The position numbers were made by a program. A DNA stretch of 64,000 nt from Podarcis filfolensis (Eukaryota): the NCBI GenBank assembly GCA_964270895.1, contig OZ185440.1. One strand, written 5' to 3'. Below are positions 25,801 to 34,800 of the stretch, piece after piece; within the stretch, counting starts at the first letter, position 1, and every line of letters starts with the position of its first letter.

Positions 25801-28800
25801 GTAATCTTTAACAGGCAAAGCATTCCAAAGAGAAGGGGCCACCACAGAGATGGCCTTTTCTCGCATCACTCTACAGGCAGACTTGTATAGAAAGAGGTAT
25901 TTAGGTCTGATCATTTTTTATACATCAACATTAACACATTGAATTGAGTGCTGCAGGTTCTGCAGGACAAATGTTGTTATGTGGTTCCAACCGCCAGTAC
26001 TTCTCAACATCCTCAGAATTACATCAGCTACAGTTTTTAAACCATACGCAGCCCAAAAAGCACTTTACAATAATTCAACTGGGAAGTTACCATAACATGC
26101 GTTGCTATGGCTAGGCTTCCTAACCAGGAAAGGCCATCACTGACAAACTAGTAATTGGAACTCCTTGCCACCAGGACCATCAAGGACAGCACTGGATCAA
26201 GGAGAGCCCCAAGACCATGAGCTCACTCTTTCAAGAGGAGAACGAACCTATCCAGAACAAACTGTGTATTAAATTCCCAATCAGAGAACCAGCAACACAC
26301 AGGTAATCTAACCTGAATGTTACCAGTCCAGAGCATAGATAAGTGAAGTCAAACTATTAATATTCCAAGTAGAGTTGCATGTGGTGCATCACCTTAAGCT
26401 TATAAAAAGGATGCCATTCCATGGAAGCAACTCACACTTCAAGTGACACAAGTTGTACCTAAGTGTCTACACTCTCTTGTTCCTTACTTGTATCAGAAAA
26501 ATTTCCAGTGTGTGCTGACCCAAGTTACTGGAAGACCCAAATCACTGAATGAGAGCAATTTTTAAAGAATAAAATCTTTATGGACTACTGTGGGATAGCC
26601 CTCCATCAAAATAATGCTTGGGTCAATTAAAAGCCCTTCCTTATTGAGGCTTTACTTAGCTTCAGGTTGTGAAGGAGCAAGAGGCAACAAAAATAAGCCT
26701 ATCATCTCAGTCATTCCCTACTGTTTCTTCACTAGCAGAGGGCAGCCCATAACAGGCATATCATGAAGCCTGCAGGAAGCAAAGGAAAGTGGAAAGAGCA
26801 GACTTTGGTCATTTCCTGTAAAAAGAGCCTGACTGCAATGTGCAGAGAATAACTTGTCTTGGTAGCTGAGAGCATTTGGACCTTTTCACAAATGAAGCAA
26901 CCCAATCTTTTAAAAACAAAACCTGTGTTTATATAAGCTAGCTGCATGAATTCTTGTTGGGCAAATTAACTCTGTGATATGACTCAATATGTAGAGAAAG
27001 AATTTTAACCATTTCAGTTGCTATGAGTGTTTCCATGATTTACAAAGCTCTCCTTCATGCAAGAGCTCAATGGAGACCAAGAGCTGGGAAAATCTATAAG
27101 CTATAAATGAACCAATATACTATCTTTAAATGAAATTGTTGCTAAAAGAAAAGAACATACACTTGCTTCATTAAGGCAAATTATTACTTGGGGCATATTA
27201 TTTGGGACTAAAAGCAAGACCTTGAGATGTTAAACTGGCCCCCCAAAGCTTGAAATACGTGTTTCTTTAGTATTTAAATCAATTGGCAATTAGTGCTTTA
27301 ATTTCTTTTGTGTATAGAATGAAATATTGGCTCCAGCAATATTTGTATTTTGTAGGAAAAGGTAATGCGTATCTTGAGAACTGTAATGCATATCTTGAGA
27401 ACTTTAACTTTCCTTGCCTATTGTTTTAGATAGTAGAATTGAAGTGTATTGCACTATTGCATTATTTGTAATAAGGGTGCCAAGAATCTATCATCAAAGT
27501 AGTATGGAATTCCTGTCGCCTAGGCAGCCCAGGACTTCCAGACACACTGTCTAGGCTTGTGCCCTTAGTAGTAGTGTCCAATATATTTCCAGCGAAAAGC
27601 AGTAAAGTTCAATTCCATACACATACTATTTTCTGTGGAGGTGGATGAGAGGATTTTCACAGCACAAATCCTATCTTTGCATGTCTGCTTGGCTGTATTC
27701 TCCATTTTGCTCATGAATCCAACTCCCTAGTAAGTGTGCTTGGGATTGCATTCTCAGAATTGAATAAGCTTGAAAGGAGGGCAGCTGCTCATAGAATGTG
27801 CACTTATTCTACCACCACTTCCGATAAGCAGATTCTGTAGGTTTTCAAAATAGTACAAAATCTGTAAAACCTTCTTGACCAGAAACAACAGTGGGCATGG
27901 CTACCCTTAAAAGGTACAGGACAGATCACACTGCACACACCGCAGTTCTTTAATTTCCCCTTCTGTTTCTGCTGACCCTCTTCTCCATGACAGTGGTGGT
28001 GGTGACCCGTCCTCGTCCCAGATTATTTTTTTGTCAGTTTGGGTGCATGTTTTTCTTTTTAATAGCAGTGGTAGCCTCTCTGCTTGGAGCATATCATAAT
28101 CCGAATGATATGGCTAATCAAATGGCAATGCTGGTTACCAATTACCCTGCTTCAGCAAAGGATATTCAACTAGATTTTCAGATCCTGTTTGAAAGAAGCT
28201 GCAGTTGCGCCATTTTATGACATTATGCTATGTTGTAATATTTTTTCACCTGGTTTTTCCTCTGCAAGTAGTTACACTGTATTTTATAATATACTGGAAG
28301 CCATATGCCTGGTAATATTTTGCAGCTTCATACAGGCAAATAATGTTTTACTTATAAGCAAAACAAGTTGGATGAAAAAAGCCCAGTTGAACACATTTAC
28401 AAACATAAACATTGATGAAAATAAAAATGCAAATCCTCACTCTTACCAGAACACACTGATCTAGTTCCAATGTATCACAACAAAGTAGAACGTTTTCCCC
28501 CTACATCAGAAATGGAATAGGAGTCAATGATGTTAATTACTTGCAGAAGAGTTACAGTTTTACATACAATATGAATATTTAGTAGGGAGACTTCCTTATT
28601 AATATTTCATAAGAATACTGGCCATCCAAGCTACTTAATAGATTTAAACTTTTAATAAAGATTCTACTGAAAAAGACAGTATCTGCTTGTTTATTTCTGA
28701 GCAACACTCTTGAGATAAATGCCTTACATCAGTGTTCCCCAACCTTGGGCCTCCAGCTGTTTTTGGACTACAATTCCCATCATCCTTGACCACTGGTCTT

Positions 28801-31800: not shown

Positions 31801-34800
31801 GGGGCCCGAGGAGGAGCCCTGCTGGCTCTACAGCCGGCGTTGTGTTTCCCGCCCCTGCTGATTTTTTCCCCCGCGCAAGGCGCGCGCGCCCACTCACCTG
31901 GCCGGCCACCTGGTCTTGGTGCCTCCTCAGCGCCACCTGCGCGGCCGTCACGCGCTGCCTCTCGAGCACCAGCAAGCACGCGGCGCACGCGCACTCCCGC
32001 CAGCGGCACAGCCGCTTGTGGCCCTTGAGGCTGGACACCACGCCGTGGTTCCTGCAGCGCGCGCACTTGGGCAGTCGCTGGCTCAGCAGGCGCCGCGAGC
32101 CGGTGCTGAAAGCGCCGCAGCAGCCCTCGACCTCATGGCCGGGGCGCTCTGAAGAGTTGACGGGGCGGGCAGACTTAGCTTTTCGCTGCTGCCTGGAGGG
32201 CAAGGGCAACATGACGGACCTCTTGCTCGCTGTCTCAGGCCTTCTGAAGCTGTAGCTACTTTTTTTTTTTGGTGGGCTTGAAGGCACCTGCACAGGTTGG
32301 GCTTCACTTTGCTAGACGACAGCAAAGCCGCGTCGCATTTGCAACTTGTCGGGGCTGTAGCGCCCTCTGGCCGAGTCTGCGGCTGCTTCCCGTCGGCTCT
32401 CCTCTACAGCCGTGTCTTCTTCTGTCCTGCGTATTAGTAGCACCTTTTCTGATGAAGGCTCAGCCCGGCCCAGCCGTGATCTTTGACGTCAGTTCTCCAC
32501 TTCTCCCCACCACTTTCCACTCAATCAAATCTATTCTAGGCTTAACCCCTAAAATGCTATAGGACACAAGGCTCTGCTTTGCCGTCCTTCCCACAACACA
32601 CACGTATCGACCCATTTTCGAGTCCTGTACTACATCAATTATTGCCAAGAATCGGATGCATTATGAGAAGAACCTGGACTGTCAGCCTTGCAAGGCACAG
32701 TAAGTGAGGACGGTAATTCAAAATTACGCCTACCAGTGAGCAAGGACTAGGGCGATGTGTTTATTATGTTTCTTCATTACCTTTCTGGCAAGATACTCAC
32801 GGCATTTTACAGCAGAAAAGCACAAAAACAGATGCAACTCCTCCCCCAGCCAGTAAGAAAAAAAAATAATGGAGATTGCAACAGCAGATTTTAAAAAAAT
32901 AATTTTTGTAAATAGGAAACGGTCCTGAAAAACTCCACTGAAATAAGAGTTTTTACTGAACTTTCTTCAGTGGTTCACAGTCTTGACTTAGTCATTTAGC
33001 ATTTTAAAATCAAAACTAGCACCTTGAAACATGGCTGGAAGCAAATCAGTAACCAGTGAAGCTAGTAAAGGATTGGCATAATGTGATACAGCTGGCAGTT
33101 GCATGTGGAACTAATGGAACCTTTTGGGCATTATTTAATGACGGCTCCATGTAGAACATACTGCAGTACTGTAATCCAATCTCAAATTAACAAGAAATTA
33201 CTTTTGGTGTGTAATTCAAAGTTGGTAAAAAGCTGTCCTAGCCACCACTGATATCTGAGCATCTAAGTGCAGTTTTGAGTCTAGAACGCTCAAACTATGT
33301 ATACTTTTTTCCTCATTCAAATGCAGATGTATACATATTTAATCATTTAAATGATTAAAACTAACATGATTAATTGACTAAGATTTATTTAAAAGGGTGA
33401 TAGTCCTATTAATTGGTACGATAAACTAACATTTTAATCTACAATTACAATCTCTTAGCTAACTGATGAAATGAACAATAAATTTCAGGATTTGGGGCTC
33501 TTGTAGCACCAATAACTACAAGACTAGGTAAAAAAATAGTTTGCCATACTTATGACAATTGGCTTCTCTCTCATACTTTCCTATATAGTGATACCTCAGG
33601 TTAACTACTTAATTTGTTCCGGAGGTCCGTTCTTAATCTGAAACTGTTCTTAACCTGAAGCACCACTTTAGTTAATGGGGCCTCCTGCTGCTGCCGCGCC
33701 GCCAGAGCACGATTTCTGTTCTCATCCTGAAGCAAAGTTCTTAACCCGAGGTACTATATCTGGGTTAGCGGAGTCTGTAACCTGAAGCGTATGTAACCCG
33801 AGGTACCACTTTACTTCACAAAAGTCCACTCTCAAGGATCCACAAACAAACAAAAAAGAAACATTCTTTTATATTTAAATACACTATAGTTATTTAAAAT
33901 ATAGAATATTGACTTGAAAACCAGAAAATTCAAAAGCTTACATCTGTAGCACTACAAAAACAAGCAGAACTGCATACATCATTGCAAAATGATCCATGAT
34001 CTCTTGATCCAACTGCTGTTTGTCTTCAGTGTTATGAATTTCAAATTCAGGGTCAACTTTTAAATATAGTGTTTGATTCAGAACTAAAATACTAGAAGAT
34101 AATACTCCCATGTTGTAACACGTGTTCACCTAAGTAGTTGTAACACATGCTCACACAAGTAGTCTTGCACAGCTCTCACTCCTTTTGGTTGAGTTTGCAC
34201 ACAAGAATTTCTTACATGGTGGATTGTGACCTAGTGCACTAGTGCATTATTGTGACCTAGGCCACAATAATTTGTCCATCCTGGCTCATTTGTGATATGA
34301 AAGAGTGATTTCAGCCATGCAGTGATATGGCAAAACGCATCCTGACTAAAATGCCTTTGGCTCTGGATGTTGTTCGGTCACTTGAAATAGGAAATTTTTA
34401 TTAATCCTTCTATTGCTGCTCATTAGGTAAGCCAAGTAGGTATATGTTTGAATTTTCCATTAATTCTTCAACACTGTACTAGTAATTGTATTCAGATAAA
34501 AGTAACCTTGTTAATGTCCCCTCCGCCTTTTAAACATTTGAAGTCTGTTTCAGAACAAAAATGTGACATTTCAAAACTTAAGATCAGTATCAATGTTTAA
34601 TAGATTTAAGCAAAGAAAATGAAACTAACATTTGTAGCTGGTCTTTTTACAACGGAACACATTAAAGCAGAATGCTGTTCTTCATTCTTATTCTGATTTA
34701 TTACAAAAATAAATCCTATCAGGTAAGAACTGTGCTCTTTGCAAGGATGCTACTTTTTCCCAAAGTAAAGGCTGAGTAAGTAAAGGCTCTTCCCCACTTC

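What the first reader, a model, noticed from the sequence alone, without database searches (positions are those of the whole stretch)
28644..32212. Intact dmrt2b-type gene in an amniote, between GLIS1 and DMRTB1
Seen: a complete three-exon DMRT2-type ORF with canonical splice sites, located not in the DMRT1-DMRT3-DMRT2 cluster but directly downstream of DMRTB1. Established (from memory): dmrt2b is best known from fishes, where it lies near dmrt6 and lrp8, and it is absent from this block in human. Inference: this is the retained dmrt2b paralog. Outside the DM domain, the RMRKRRAFADKELE box and the LSFSVES tail it is highly diverged, and its role in reptiles is not known to me.
Basis: partly seen in the sequence, partly recalled or inferred. 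Interest (0 to 1): 0.65.

Follow-up and report, generated by a model that had tools for sequence, protein, structure and literature searches.

The report
Second DMRT2-type gene beside DMRTB1
A complete gene for a DMRT2-like DNA-binding regulator lies just downstream of a DMRTB1-like gene, where gar and coelacanth keep dmrt2b, a copy that papers say four-limbed animals lost; its last exon carries a young in-frame transposon.

Summary
On the minus strand, three exons (32212-31898, 30342-30234, 29530-28644) have GT/AG splice sites and compatible phases, giving 436 codons.

- **Domain:** exon 1 carries a DM domain (Pfam E=7e-22; all eight zinc ligands kept against DMRT1 structure 4YJ0).
- **DMRT2 features:** exon 3 has a basic box and ends in an EH1-type Groucho/TLE motif, which Copley 2005 found in human DMRT2 and fly dmrt11E.
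- **Neighbours:** a second, DMA-less DM gene lies 6-9 kb upstream on the same strand. I recognise it as DMRTB1, and two plus-strand exons at 2.6 and 7.9 kb as the GLIS1 3' end, from memory only.
- **Literature:** this matches the dmrt6-dmrt2b cluster described in gar and coelacanth. The papers I could read say tetrapods lack dmrt2b.
- **New caveat:** exon 3 holds a young 136-bp hairpin transposon with an 8-bp target duplication. It adds 48 codons in frame and forms a -118 kcal/mol RNA hairpin.

The 2a/2b phylogeny, dN/dS, expression and the source taxon could not be tested here.

Verdict: probably a retained dmrt2b-type gene, a new member of a known kind, of moderate interest.

The parts
31898..32212 (-). 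Coding exon 1 (105 codons, phase 0), ATG at 32212, donor GTGAGT at 31897
   Evidence: sequence
31937..32077 (-). DM DNA-binding domain (CCHC + HCCC zinc module and recognition helix)
   Evidence: Pfam PF00751 E=7.3e-22, residues 79-125 of ORF 31787-32311. PDB 4YJ0 E=1.7e-23, all eight ligands aligned.
31700..32500 (.). CpG island over exon 1 and its 5' flank (GC 0.50-0.73, CpG o/e 0.56-0.95 in 200-bp windows). The strongest in the window.
30234..30342 (-). Coding exon 2 (109 nt), acceptor ...gttgcatag, donor GTATGT. Needed to keep the frame.
28644..29530 (-). Coding exon 3 (294 full codons plus stop TAA at 28644-28646), acceptor ...ttgttgtag
   Evidence: No Pfam domain. Atlas first hit is a DMRT2 cluster at 0.88, 179 of 256 features shared.
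29436..29477 (-). Basic box RMRKRRAFADKELE, a candidate nuclear localisation signal (inference)
   Evidence: Translation. A conserved NLS was mapped to residues 169-180 of chicken DMRT2 (PMC13314891, passages), but its letters are not in the text I saw.
28730..28865 (.). 136-bp hairpin transposon (MITE-like) inside exon 3. Its 54-nt arms are 98% complementary and its ends read CAGTG.../...CACCG.
   Evidence: RNA fold -117.7 kcal/mol, z=-15.2. No other copy in the window: 2 matches to a 21-nt arm probe at up to 3 mismatches, both being its own arms.
28722..28729 (.). Target-site duplication, left copy (CCTTACAT)
28866..28873 (.). Target-site duplication, right copy (CCTTACAT). Element plus one copy is 144 nt, or 48 codons.
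28653..28673 (-). EH1-type motif FSVESLL, four residues before the stop
   Evidence: One of only 2 matches to a loose EH1 pattern in 127,996 six-frame positions. EH1 in human DMRT2 and fly dmrt11E: PMC1310626.
43640..43904 (-). Upstream neighbour, exon 1 with its own DM domain. DMRTB1/DMRT6-like (name from memory).
   Evidence: Pfam DM E=6.1e-22; translation; 31 of 54 identical to the candidate's DM domain; Atlas gave only generic DM clusters.
41057..41284 (-). Upstream neighbour, exon 2 (AG acceptor, GTAAGT donor; its phase fits exon 1)
   Evidence: Sequence. No Pfam domain.
38290..38450 (-). Upstream neighbour, probable third exon (proline-rich; approximate limits)
   Evidence: ORF 38239-38517 printed. 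Assignment from memory only.
2611..2778 (+). GLIS1-like penultimate coding exon (name from memory), AG acceptor and GT donor
7877..8016 (+). GLIS1-like last coding exon ending ...IPPIYTDT, stop at 8014-8016. Convergent with the candidate.
   Evidence: Its phase fits the exon at 2611-2778.

Best explanation
This is a DMRT2-class transcription factor gene sitting at the position of dmrt2b. dmrt2b is the sister copy of DMRT2 left by the early vertebrate genome duplications. It lies tail-to-head behind the DMRT6/DMRTB1-type gene and faces the 3' end of a GLIS gene.

Shown:
- A three-exon open frame of 436 codons.
- A complete DM zinc module for DNA binding.
- A basic box.
- A C-terminal EH1-type motif.
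- A CpG island over exon 1.

Inferred mechanism: the protein enters the nucleus (perhaps through the basic box), binds DNA through the DM domain, and represses targets by recruiting Groucho/TLE through the EH1 tail, as proposed for DMRT2 and dmrt11E.

Inferred history: the gene was kept in this lineage while other tetrapods lost it. A hAT-like miniature transposon recently inserted into the weakly constrained part of exon 3 and survived because it adds 48 stop-free codons in frame.
For: - Gene model and phases.
- DM domain: Pfam E=7.3e-22; PDB 4YJ0 E=1.7e-23 with all eight zinc ligands kept.
- No DMA domain in any exon ORF.
- EH1-type motif at the C-terminus: 1 of only 2 matches in 127,996 six-frame positions. 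Copley 2005 found EH1 in human DMRT2 (11.6 bits) and fly dmrt11E (11.2 bits) among DM proteins.
- Exon 3 alone, which has no DM domain, has DMRT2 clusters as its first two Atlas hits, at 0.88 and 0.78.
- Three coding exons, as tabulated for dmrt2 and dmrt2a/b (Dong 2020, Table 2).
- The upstream same-strand DM gene has no DMA or Dmrt1 domain in 0 of 54 ORFs and is only 57% identical in the DM domain. It is therefore neither a DMRT3-type neighbour nor a recent tandem copy.
- A published dmrt6-dmrt2b cluster lies next to glis-family genes in gar, and is conserved in gar and coelacanth (Mawaribuchi 2019).
- Zebrafish Dmrt2b keeps the DM domain (94.7% to Dmrt2a) but is only 31% identical over the full length (Liu 2009). 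This is the same pattern of conserved boxes in a diverged body.
- CpG island over exon 1.
- Only 1 of 6 phase-and-orientation combinations of the transposon is stop-free, and that is the one present. This is weak evidence (about 1 in 6 by chance) that the frame was under selection when it inserted.
Against: - No tree could be built, so grouping with dmrt2b rather than with amniote DMRT2 is untested.
- The source taxon is untested.
- The names DMRTB1 and GLIS1 come from memory. The Atlas gave only generic DM clusters for the neighbour, and no GLIS zinc-finger exon is in the window.
- The Atlas score of 0.88 is below the tool's 0.9 line and counts as a lead only.
- A near-perfect 54-bp stem (-117.7 kcal/mol) inside the coding sequence, from an insertion with identical 8-bp duplications, is what one expects under relaxed constraint. 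It could also hamper translation.
- There are no expression or dN/dS data.
- Surveys that included green anole, alligator, a wall lizard and a turtle list only one DMRT2. Either the gene is absent from those species or it was overlooked.
Confidence: 0.55

Rival explanations
1. It is the dmrt2b-position gene but is no longer functional. On this reading it is a unitary pseudogene at an early stage, whose frame is still open only because decay has just begun.
For: - A young transposon sits inside the last coding exon: arms 98% complementary, duplications 8 of 8 identical.
- It forms a -117.7 kcal/mol hairpin in the would-be mRNA.
- The body of exon 3 has no recognisable domain.
- Other tetrapods are reported to lack the gene altogether, so loss is the common fate.
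Against: - All 436 codons are open and all four splice sites are canonical.
- All eight zinc ligands are kept.
- The EH1 tail is still in frame downstream of the insertion.
- A CpG island is retained over exon 1.
- The insertion uses the only stop-free combination of six.
Confidence: 0.2
2. The window is not from an amniote. It comes from a lineage where the dmrt6-dmrt2b cluster is already described or expected (gar, coelacanth or another non-tetrapod), so the gene is the known dmrt2b.
For: - No tool result places the window in a taxon.
- GC of 0.405 and CpG depletion fit many vertebrates.
- The layout is exactly that published for gar and coelacanth.
Against: Only my recollection counts against it. 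The repeat tails present in three copies (31655-31700, 43334-43379, 55972-56017, 87-89% alike) and the hairpin element look to me like squamate repeats. Neither point is a test.
Confidence: 0.12
3. It is a lineage-specific DNA-level duplicate of the ordinary amniote DMRT2 that happened to land between DMRTB1 and GLIS1 and then diverged quickly.
For: It shares DMRT2 features: DM domain, basic box, EH1 tail and three exons. Without a tree, the age of the split is unknown.
Against: - The landing site would have to coincide with the ancestral dmrt2b site, in the same order and orientation behind the dmrt6-type gene.
- Introns are present, so it is not a retrocopy.
- Outside the boxes, exon 3 reaches only 0.88 and 0.78 to DMRT2 clusters, which does not suggest a recent copy.
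Confidence: 0.08

Closest known systems
dmrt2b of ray-finned fishes, gar and coelacanth (sister copy of DMRT2/dmrt2a from the early vertebrate genome duplications)
   Same: - DMRT2-class protein with a well-kept DM domain and a strongly diverged remainder (Liu 2009).
- Three coding exons (Dong 2020, Table 2).
- Position directly behind a dmrt6-type gene in a glis-containing block, as in gar and coelacanth (Mawaribuchi 2019).
   Different: - If the window is from an amniote, it lies in a group that the papers I read describe as lacking dmrt2b.
- It carries a 48-codon transposon-derived insert in exon 3.
- Sequence-level grouping with dmrt2b was not tested.
DMRT2 (terra/dmrt2a) of vertebrates and dmrt11E of arthropods
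   Same: - DM domain.
- No DMA domain.
- EH1-type Groucho/TLE motif (Copley 2005).
- A basic box that may correspond to the NLS mapped in chicken DMRT2 (this link is an inference).
   Different: - It is not in a DMRT1-DMRT3-DMRT2 cluster. The upstream DM gene has no DMA domain in 0 of 54 ORFs.
- The N-terminus before the DM domain is short, 47 residues.
DMRT1 DM domain bound to DNA (PDB 4YJ0)
   Same: 42 of 58 aligned residues are identical, including all zinc ligands and most of the recognition helix. The same mode of DNA binding is therefore expected.
   Different: No Dmrt1-specific domain. It is a different subfamily.
Non-autonomous hAT-type miniature transposons (for the insert in exon 3)
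   Same: Terminal inverted repeats starting CAGTG and an 8-bp target-site duplication. The link to hAT is my recollection of that superfamily's hallmarks.
   Different: - Almost the whole element is one hairpin: 114 of 136 positions are self-complementary.
- There is no transposase and no second copy in the window.

Membership tests
DM-domain (DMRT) transcription factors | DM domain with the intertwined CCHC and HCCC zinc sites followed by a recognition helix | tested here: met
   Pfam PF00751 E=7.3e-22 over the full 47-position profile. Alignment to 4YJ0 keeps 6 Cys and 2 His.
DMRT2 / dmrt11E group | EH1-type (Groucho/TLE-binding) motif outside the DM domain | tested here: met
   FSVESLL lies four residues before the stop. 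It is 1 of 2 matches to a loose pattern in 127,996 six-frame positions. The feature is described for human DMRT2 and fly dmrt11E in PMC1310626. The pattern I used is a recalled consensus, not Copley's HMM.
DMRT2 / dmrt11E group | No DMA domain (this separates the group from DMRT3/4/5) | tested here: met
   The three exon ORFs give only DM, in exon 1.
DMRT2 / dmrt11E group | Three coding exons with the DM domain in the first | tested here: met
   Dong 2020, Table 2: dmrt2 has 3 exons in tetrapods and dmrt2a/b has 3/3 or 4/3 in fishes.
DMRT2 / dmrt11E group | The non-DM part resembles DMRT2 proteins | tested here: inconclusive
   [quoted passage not shown] The second is 'DMRT2 factor (Fragment)' at 0.78. 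Both are below the 0.9 line, and recognition of 1670 is below 2300.
dmrt2b (sister copy of DMRT2) | Lies in the dmrt6-dmrt2b block with glis/lrp8/kank4-type neighbours, not in DMRT1-DMRT3-DMRT2 | tested here: inconclusive
   Shown: a second, DMA-less DM gene lies 6-9 kb upstream on the same strand. Two well-spliced plus-strand exons form a convergent 3' end at 2.6 and 7.9 kb. Not shown: that these are DMRT6/DMRTB1 and GLIS1, which I name from memory (the Atlas was generic). No LRP8-type repeats were found in the window.
dmrt2b (sister copy of DMRT2) | Groups with gar, coelacanth and teleost dmrt2b, outside DMRT2/dmrt2a, in a tree | not testable with these tools
dmrt2b (sister copy of DMRT2) | A separate DMRT2 exists in the same genome | not testable with these tools
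   Only this 64-kb window is available.
Amniote (reptile) origin of the window | The sequence places within an amniote genome | not testable with these tools
   No vertebrate nucleotide collection was on hand. Rfam gave 0 matches. My reading of the repeats as squamate-like is memory only.
hAT-type miniature transposon (the insert) | Terminal inverted repeats and an 8-bp target-site duplication | tested here: met
   Arms are 54 nt and 98% complementary. CCTTACAT lies on both sides, and the element is 136 bp. Superfamily assignment is by recalled hallmarks.

The most novel reading that the evidence does not exclude
dmrt2b is not fish-specific. At least one amniote lineage kept a working copy behind DMRTB1 for more than 300 million years. 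Its absence from mammals, birds and amphibians would then reflect several independent losses, and reptiles would have a second DMRT2-class, Groucho-recruiting repressor whose developmental role (somites, left-right patterning, pharyngeal pouches or gonad, by analogy with zebrafish) is unexplored.
Probability: 0.45. Interest if true: 0.55.

Novelty: new member of a known kind. Interest (0 to 1): 0.45.

Why it matters
Every paper I could read that addresses the point says tetrapods have a single DMRT2 or calls dmrt2b fish-specific. Surveys that included green anole list one DMRT2 for it.

A retained copy in an amniote would have three consequences:
- It would correct that picture.
- It would date the loss events differently.
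- It would give a tetrapod model for a gene known functionally only from zebrafish (Hedgehog-dependent somite patterning, left-right asymmetry, pharyngeal cartilage).

The gain is incremental. The family, its DNA-binding mode and the paralogy itself are already known, and genome annotation pipelines may already list such a gene under a '-like' name, which I could not check.

The in-frame transposon is a small but clean example of a coding exon absorbing a hairpin element.

Tried and rejected
**Ordinary DMRT2 in the DMRT1-DMRT3-DMRT2 cluster.** Rejected.
- The upstream DM gene has no large DMA-bearing exon.
- 0 of 54 minus-strand ORFs of 45 aa or more between 32.5 and 43.6 kb hit DMA or Dmrt1. 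The only family found was DUF3915, in 2 members, best E=5.5e-4.
- A loose recalled DMA pattern found nothing relevant.

**Retrocopy of DMRT2.** Rejected, because two introns are present.

**Recent tandem copy of the neighbour.** Rejected. The DM domains are 31 of 54 identical.

**Hairpin element as an unrecognised intron.** By eye its ends give a weak donor and no pyrimidine tract. I did not score this.

**Searches that led nowhere.**
- Atlas on the neighbour's exon 1 gave only generic DM clusters, so it does not name DMRTB1.
- A first try of that call was off by one base and failed. I corrected it after checking the frame.
- Rfam on the whole window: 0 matches.
- Six-frame scan for C2H2 fingers: 4 pattern matches, none GLIS-like; one belongs to a LINE-like ORF at 18734.
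- Scan for LDL-receptor repeats, to find LRP8: 1 spurious match.
- Full-text search for the box and tail peptides: 0 papers.
- One literature search was badly set. dmrt2b was not required, and 0 of the 30 listed papers held it.
- Johnsen and Andersen 2012 is not held. I know it only through its title and citations.

**Left out or closed.**
- I did not search or fold the joined three-exon protein. Exons were handled one by one.
- I did not use the structure or complex predictors. The Pfam and PDB matches already settle the DM domain, and no TLE sequence could be brought in.
The one open genome collection holds only bacteria and archaea, so I did not use it.
- Paper supplements were closed. I therefore could not see Table S1 of Mawaribuchi 2019, which lists the tetrapod genomes searched.

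
Full report
**Window and observation**

The window has no N, has GC 0.405 and is CpG-depleted like a vertebrate genome.
- The first in-frame ATG after an in-frame stop (32314) is at 32212.
- Exon 1 runs to 31898 (315 nt, phase 0, donor GTGAGT).
- Exon 2 is 30342-30234 (109 nt; pyrimidine tract plus AG; donor GTATGT).
- Exon 3 is 29530-28644 (pyrimidine tract plus AG; TAA at 28644-28646).
- Exon 2 ends with one base that completes a codon with the first two bases of exon 3. Without exon 2 the frame would break.
- The three parts sum to 436 codons.

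The joined protein was never built, searched or folded.

**What the exons encode**

Exon 1 holds a DM domain.
- Pfam PF00751 gives E=7.3e-22 over the whole 47-position profile.
- Against solved structures the best match is the DNA-bound DM domain of DMRT1 (4YJ0, E=1.7e-23). 42 of 58 aligned residues are identical and all six cysteines and two histidines of the zinc sites are in place.
- Drosophila Doublesex (1LPV) follows at 2e-14.

Exons 2 and 3 have no Pfam domain.

Exon 3 contains the basic box RMRKRRAFADKELE and ends ...ILSFSVESLLKV. That tail fits the Engrailed-homology-1 pattern that binds Groucho/TLE co-repressors.
- A loose form of the pattern occurs only twice in 127,996 six-frame positions of the window. 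One of the two is this tail, four residues before the stop.
- Copley 2005 (PMC1310626, passages read) reported that among DM proteins human DMRT2 (11.6 bits) and Drosophila dmrt11E (11.2 bits) were confidently predicted to carry EH1-like motifs, and called the two likely orthologs.
- A 2026 preprint on TLE-bound repressors lists a DMRT2 construct among its reagents (PMC13308096, one passage).

Exon 3 alone, with no DM domain in it, has two DMRT2 clusters as its nearest ESM Atlas neighbours.
- The second is 'DMRT2 factor (Fragment)' (0.78).
- Both are below the tool's 0.9 line, so this is a lead, not proof.

Three coding exons is the number tabulated for dmrt2 and for dmrt2a/b (Dong 2020, PMC7689362, Table 2 as text). 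In chicken DMRT2 a conserved nuclear localisation signal was mapped to residues 169-180 (PMC13314891, passages). The text I saw does not print its letters, so equating it with the basic box here (about residues 160-173) is my inference.

Inside exon 3 there is an inverted repeat with 54-nt arms, 98% complementary.
- It belongs to a 136-bp element (28730-28865) with ends CAGTG.../...CACCG, flanked by identical 8-bp direct repeats CCTTACAT (28722-28729 and 28866-28873).
- Element plus one repeat is 144 nt, so it adds 48 codons.
- On the coding strand only one of three frames through it is stop-free, and none of the three in the other orientation is. The open frame is the one in use.
- As RNA the region folds into a near-perfect stem of -117.7 kcal/mol (z=-15.2; 0 of 200 shuffles as stable).
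- There is no other copy in the window.
- Inverted ends plus an 8-bp duplication are, from memory, the hallmarks of hAT-type miniature transposons.
- The identical duplications and almost perfect arms say the insertion is young.

So the frame is intact, but the gene carries a recent exonised transposon 25 codons before its conserved tail. This is compatible with a tolerant, probably disordered region. It is also what the first step of decay would look like.

**Surroundings**

The window has exactly two DM zinc modules.
- The second belongs to a gene on the same strand, upstream. Its exon 1 is 43904-43640 (Pfam DM E=6.1e-22). Its exon 2 is 41284-41057, with AG and GTAAGT and a matching phase. 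A probable proline-rich third exon lies near 38.3-38.45 kb.
- Its DM domain is only 31 of 54 identical to the candidate's.
- None of the 54 minus-strand ORFs of 45 aa or more between 32.5 and 43.6 kb carries a DMA or Dmrt1 domain. The neighbour is therefore not DMRT3, and this is not the DMRT1-DMRT3-DMRT2 cluster.
- I recognise the neighbour's DM domain and later exons as DMRTB1/DMRT6, but only from memory. The Atlas returned generic DM clusters.

On the plus strand, two exons with canonical splice sites and matching phases (2611-2778 and 7877-8016, the latter ending ...IPPIYTDT and a stop) look to me like the last two coding exons of GLIS1. That too is memory. No C2H2 finger exon of a GLIS gene is in the window, and no LRP8-type repeats are either.

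With those names, the order is GLIS1 3' end (plus), about 20 kb of repeats, the candidate (minus), then DMRTB1 (minus).

A CpG island (GC up to 0.73, CpG o/e up to 0.95) covers exon 1 and its 5' flank. It is the strongest in the window, and the neighbour's start has none. ATTAAA signals lie 581 and 690 nt after the stop.

**Comparison with what is known**

- Mawaribuchi et al. 2019 (PMC6737965, passages) describe two DM clusters in spotted gar, dmrt1-dmrt3-dmrt2a and dmrt6-dmrt2b, in blocks that include glis family genes. They attribute dmrt2a/2b to the two early vertebrate genome duplications. [quoted passage not shown]
- Dong et al. 2020 state that amphibians, reptiles, birds and mammals have a single dmrt2, and list one for the anole.
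- A 2022 catfish study, a 2025 grouper study and a 2025 anuran preprint say the same or call dmrt2b fish-specific.
- A 2024 sturgeon study and a 2019 tilapia study list anole genes without a second Dmrt2.
- A July 2026 preprint surveying DMRT genes in tetrapods, including anole, alligator, a wall lizard and a turtle, reports DMRT1-7 and never mentions dmrt2b (abstract and passages).
- Searches for dmrt2b with 'reptil', 'tetrapod' or 'anol', for 'dmrt2-like', and for dmrt2 + dmrt3 + lizard turned up no report of such a gene in a tetrapod. The library lacks most subscription journals and all supplements.
- Liu et al. 2009 give the pattern typical of dmrt2b. The DM domain is 94.7% identical to Dmrt2a, but the full length is only 31%.

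**Verdict on the interpretation**

The gene is real in the sequence, is of DMRT2 type, and sits where dmrt2b sits in gar and coelacanth. That makes the retained-paralog reading the best one, at about 0.55 for a functional gene. Another 0.2 goes to the same gene in early decay.

Three things stay open:
2. Nothing here tests that the window is from an amniote. My impression that the repeat tails (three copies, 87-89% alike) and the hairpin element are squamate repeats is memory only. If the window were from gar or coelacanth, the gene would already be known.
3. There are no expression or substitution-rate data.

**Mechanism**

- Shown: a complete DM zinc module, a basic box and an EH1-type tail, in one open three-exon frame behind a CpG island.
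- Inferred: nuclear import, minor-groove and major-groove DNA binding as in the DMRT1 structure, and repression through Groucho/TLE.
- By analogy only: roles like those of zebrafish dmrt2b in somite and slow-muscle patterning through Hedgehog, in left-right asymmetry, and in pharyngeal pouch signalling to cartilage.

**Novelty and score**

This is a new member of a known kind, provided the taxon is an amniote. It would correct a statement repeated across the DMRT literature, but it adds no new kind of system, and annotation databases that I could not consult may already list it. Interest 0.45.

Noticed in passing
window 48129-49544 (+): A single uninterrupted ORF with three mitochondrial-carrier repeats (Pfam Mito_carr E=2e-46). 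From memory it closely resembles the phosphate carrier SLC25A3. Being intronless and apparently complete, it looks like a retrocopy with an open frame, lying about 4 kb upstream of the DMRTB1-like gene in a GC-richer patch (0.485).
   Followed up: partly
window 31655-31700 (+), 43334-43379 (-), 55972-56017 (-): Three copies (87-89% alike) of a repeat tail that ends in ATT or similar triplet runs. One lies in intron 1 of the candidate and one in intron 1 of the neighbour. I take it for a SINE tail, squamate-like from memory only.
   Followed up: partly
window 18066-18800 (+): A LINE-like ORF fragment (162 aa, no Pfam hit) followed by a C2H2-type knuckle at 18734-18799. This is the only finger-like match of note in the window.
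   Followed up: no
window 30890-31100: Another interspersed-repeat-like stretch inside intron 1 of the candidate (seen). It was not classified.
   Followed up: no
window 41095-41802 (-): A 236-codon open frame with no Pfam hit overlaps the neighbour's exon 2 in another frame. That is unusually long for chance in this composition. It may be repeat-derived.
   Followed up: no
window 40328-40696 (-): A 123-codon ORF with a protein-like stretch (…IQEWRMKLTDYAELDKLTGKIRYVRNQKFIEDWGKF…) and no Pfam hit. It is possibly a transposon remnant inside the DMRTB1-like gene.
   Followed up: no
window 43400-44600: The DMRTB1-like gene has no CpG island at its start (o/e at most 0.55), whereas the candidate does. 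This hints at different promoter classes for the two adjacent DM genes.
   Followed up: partly
window 40900-40990: A long GAAA-type microsatellite just downstream of the neighbour's exon 2 (seen).
   Followed up: no
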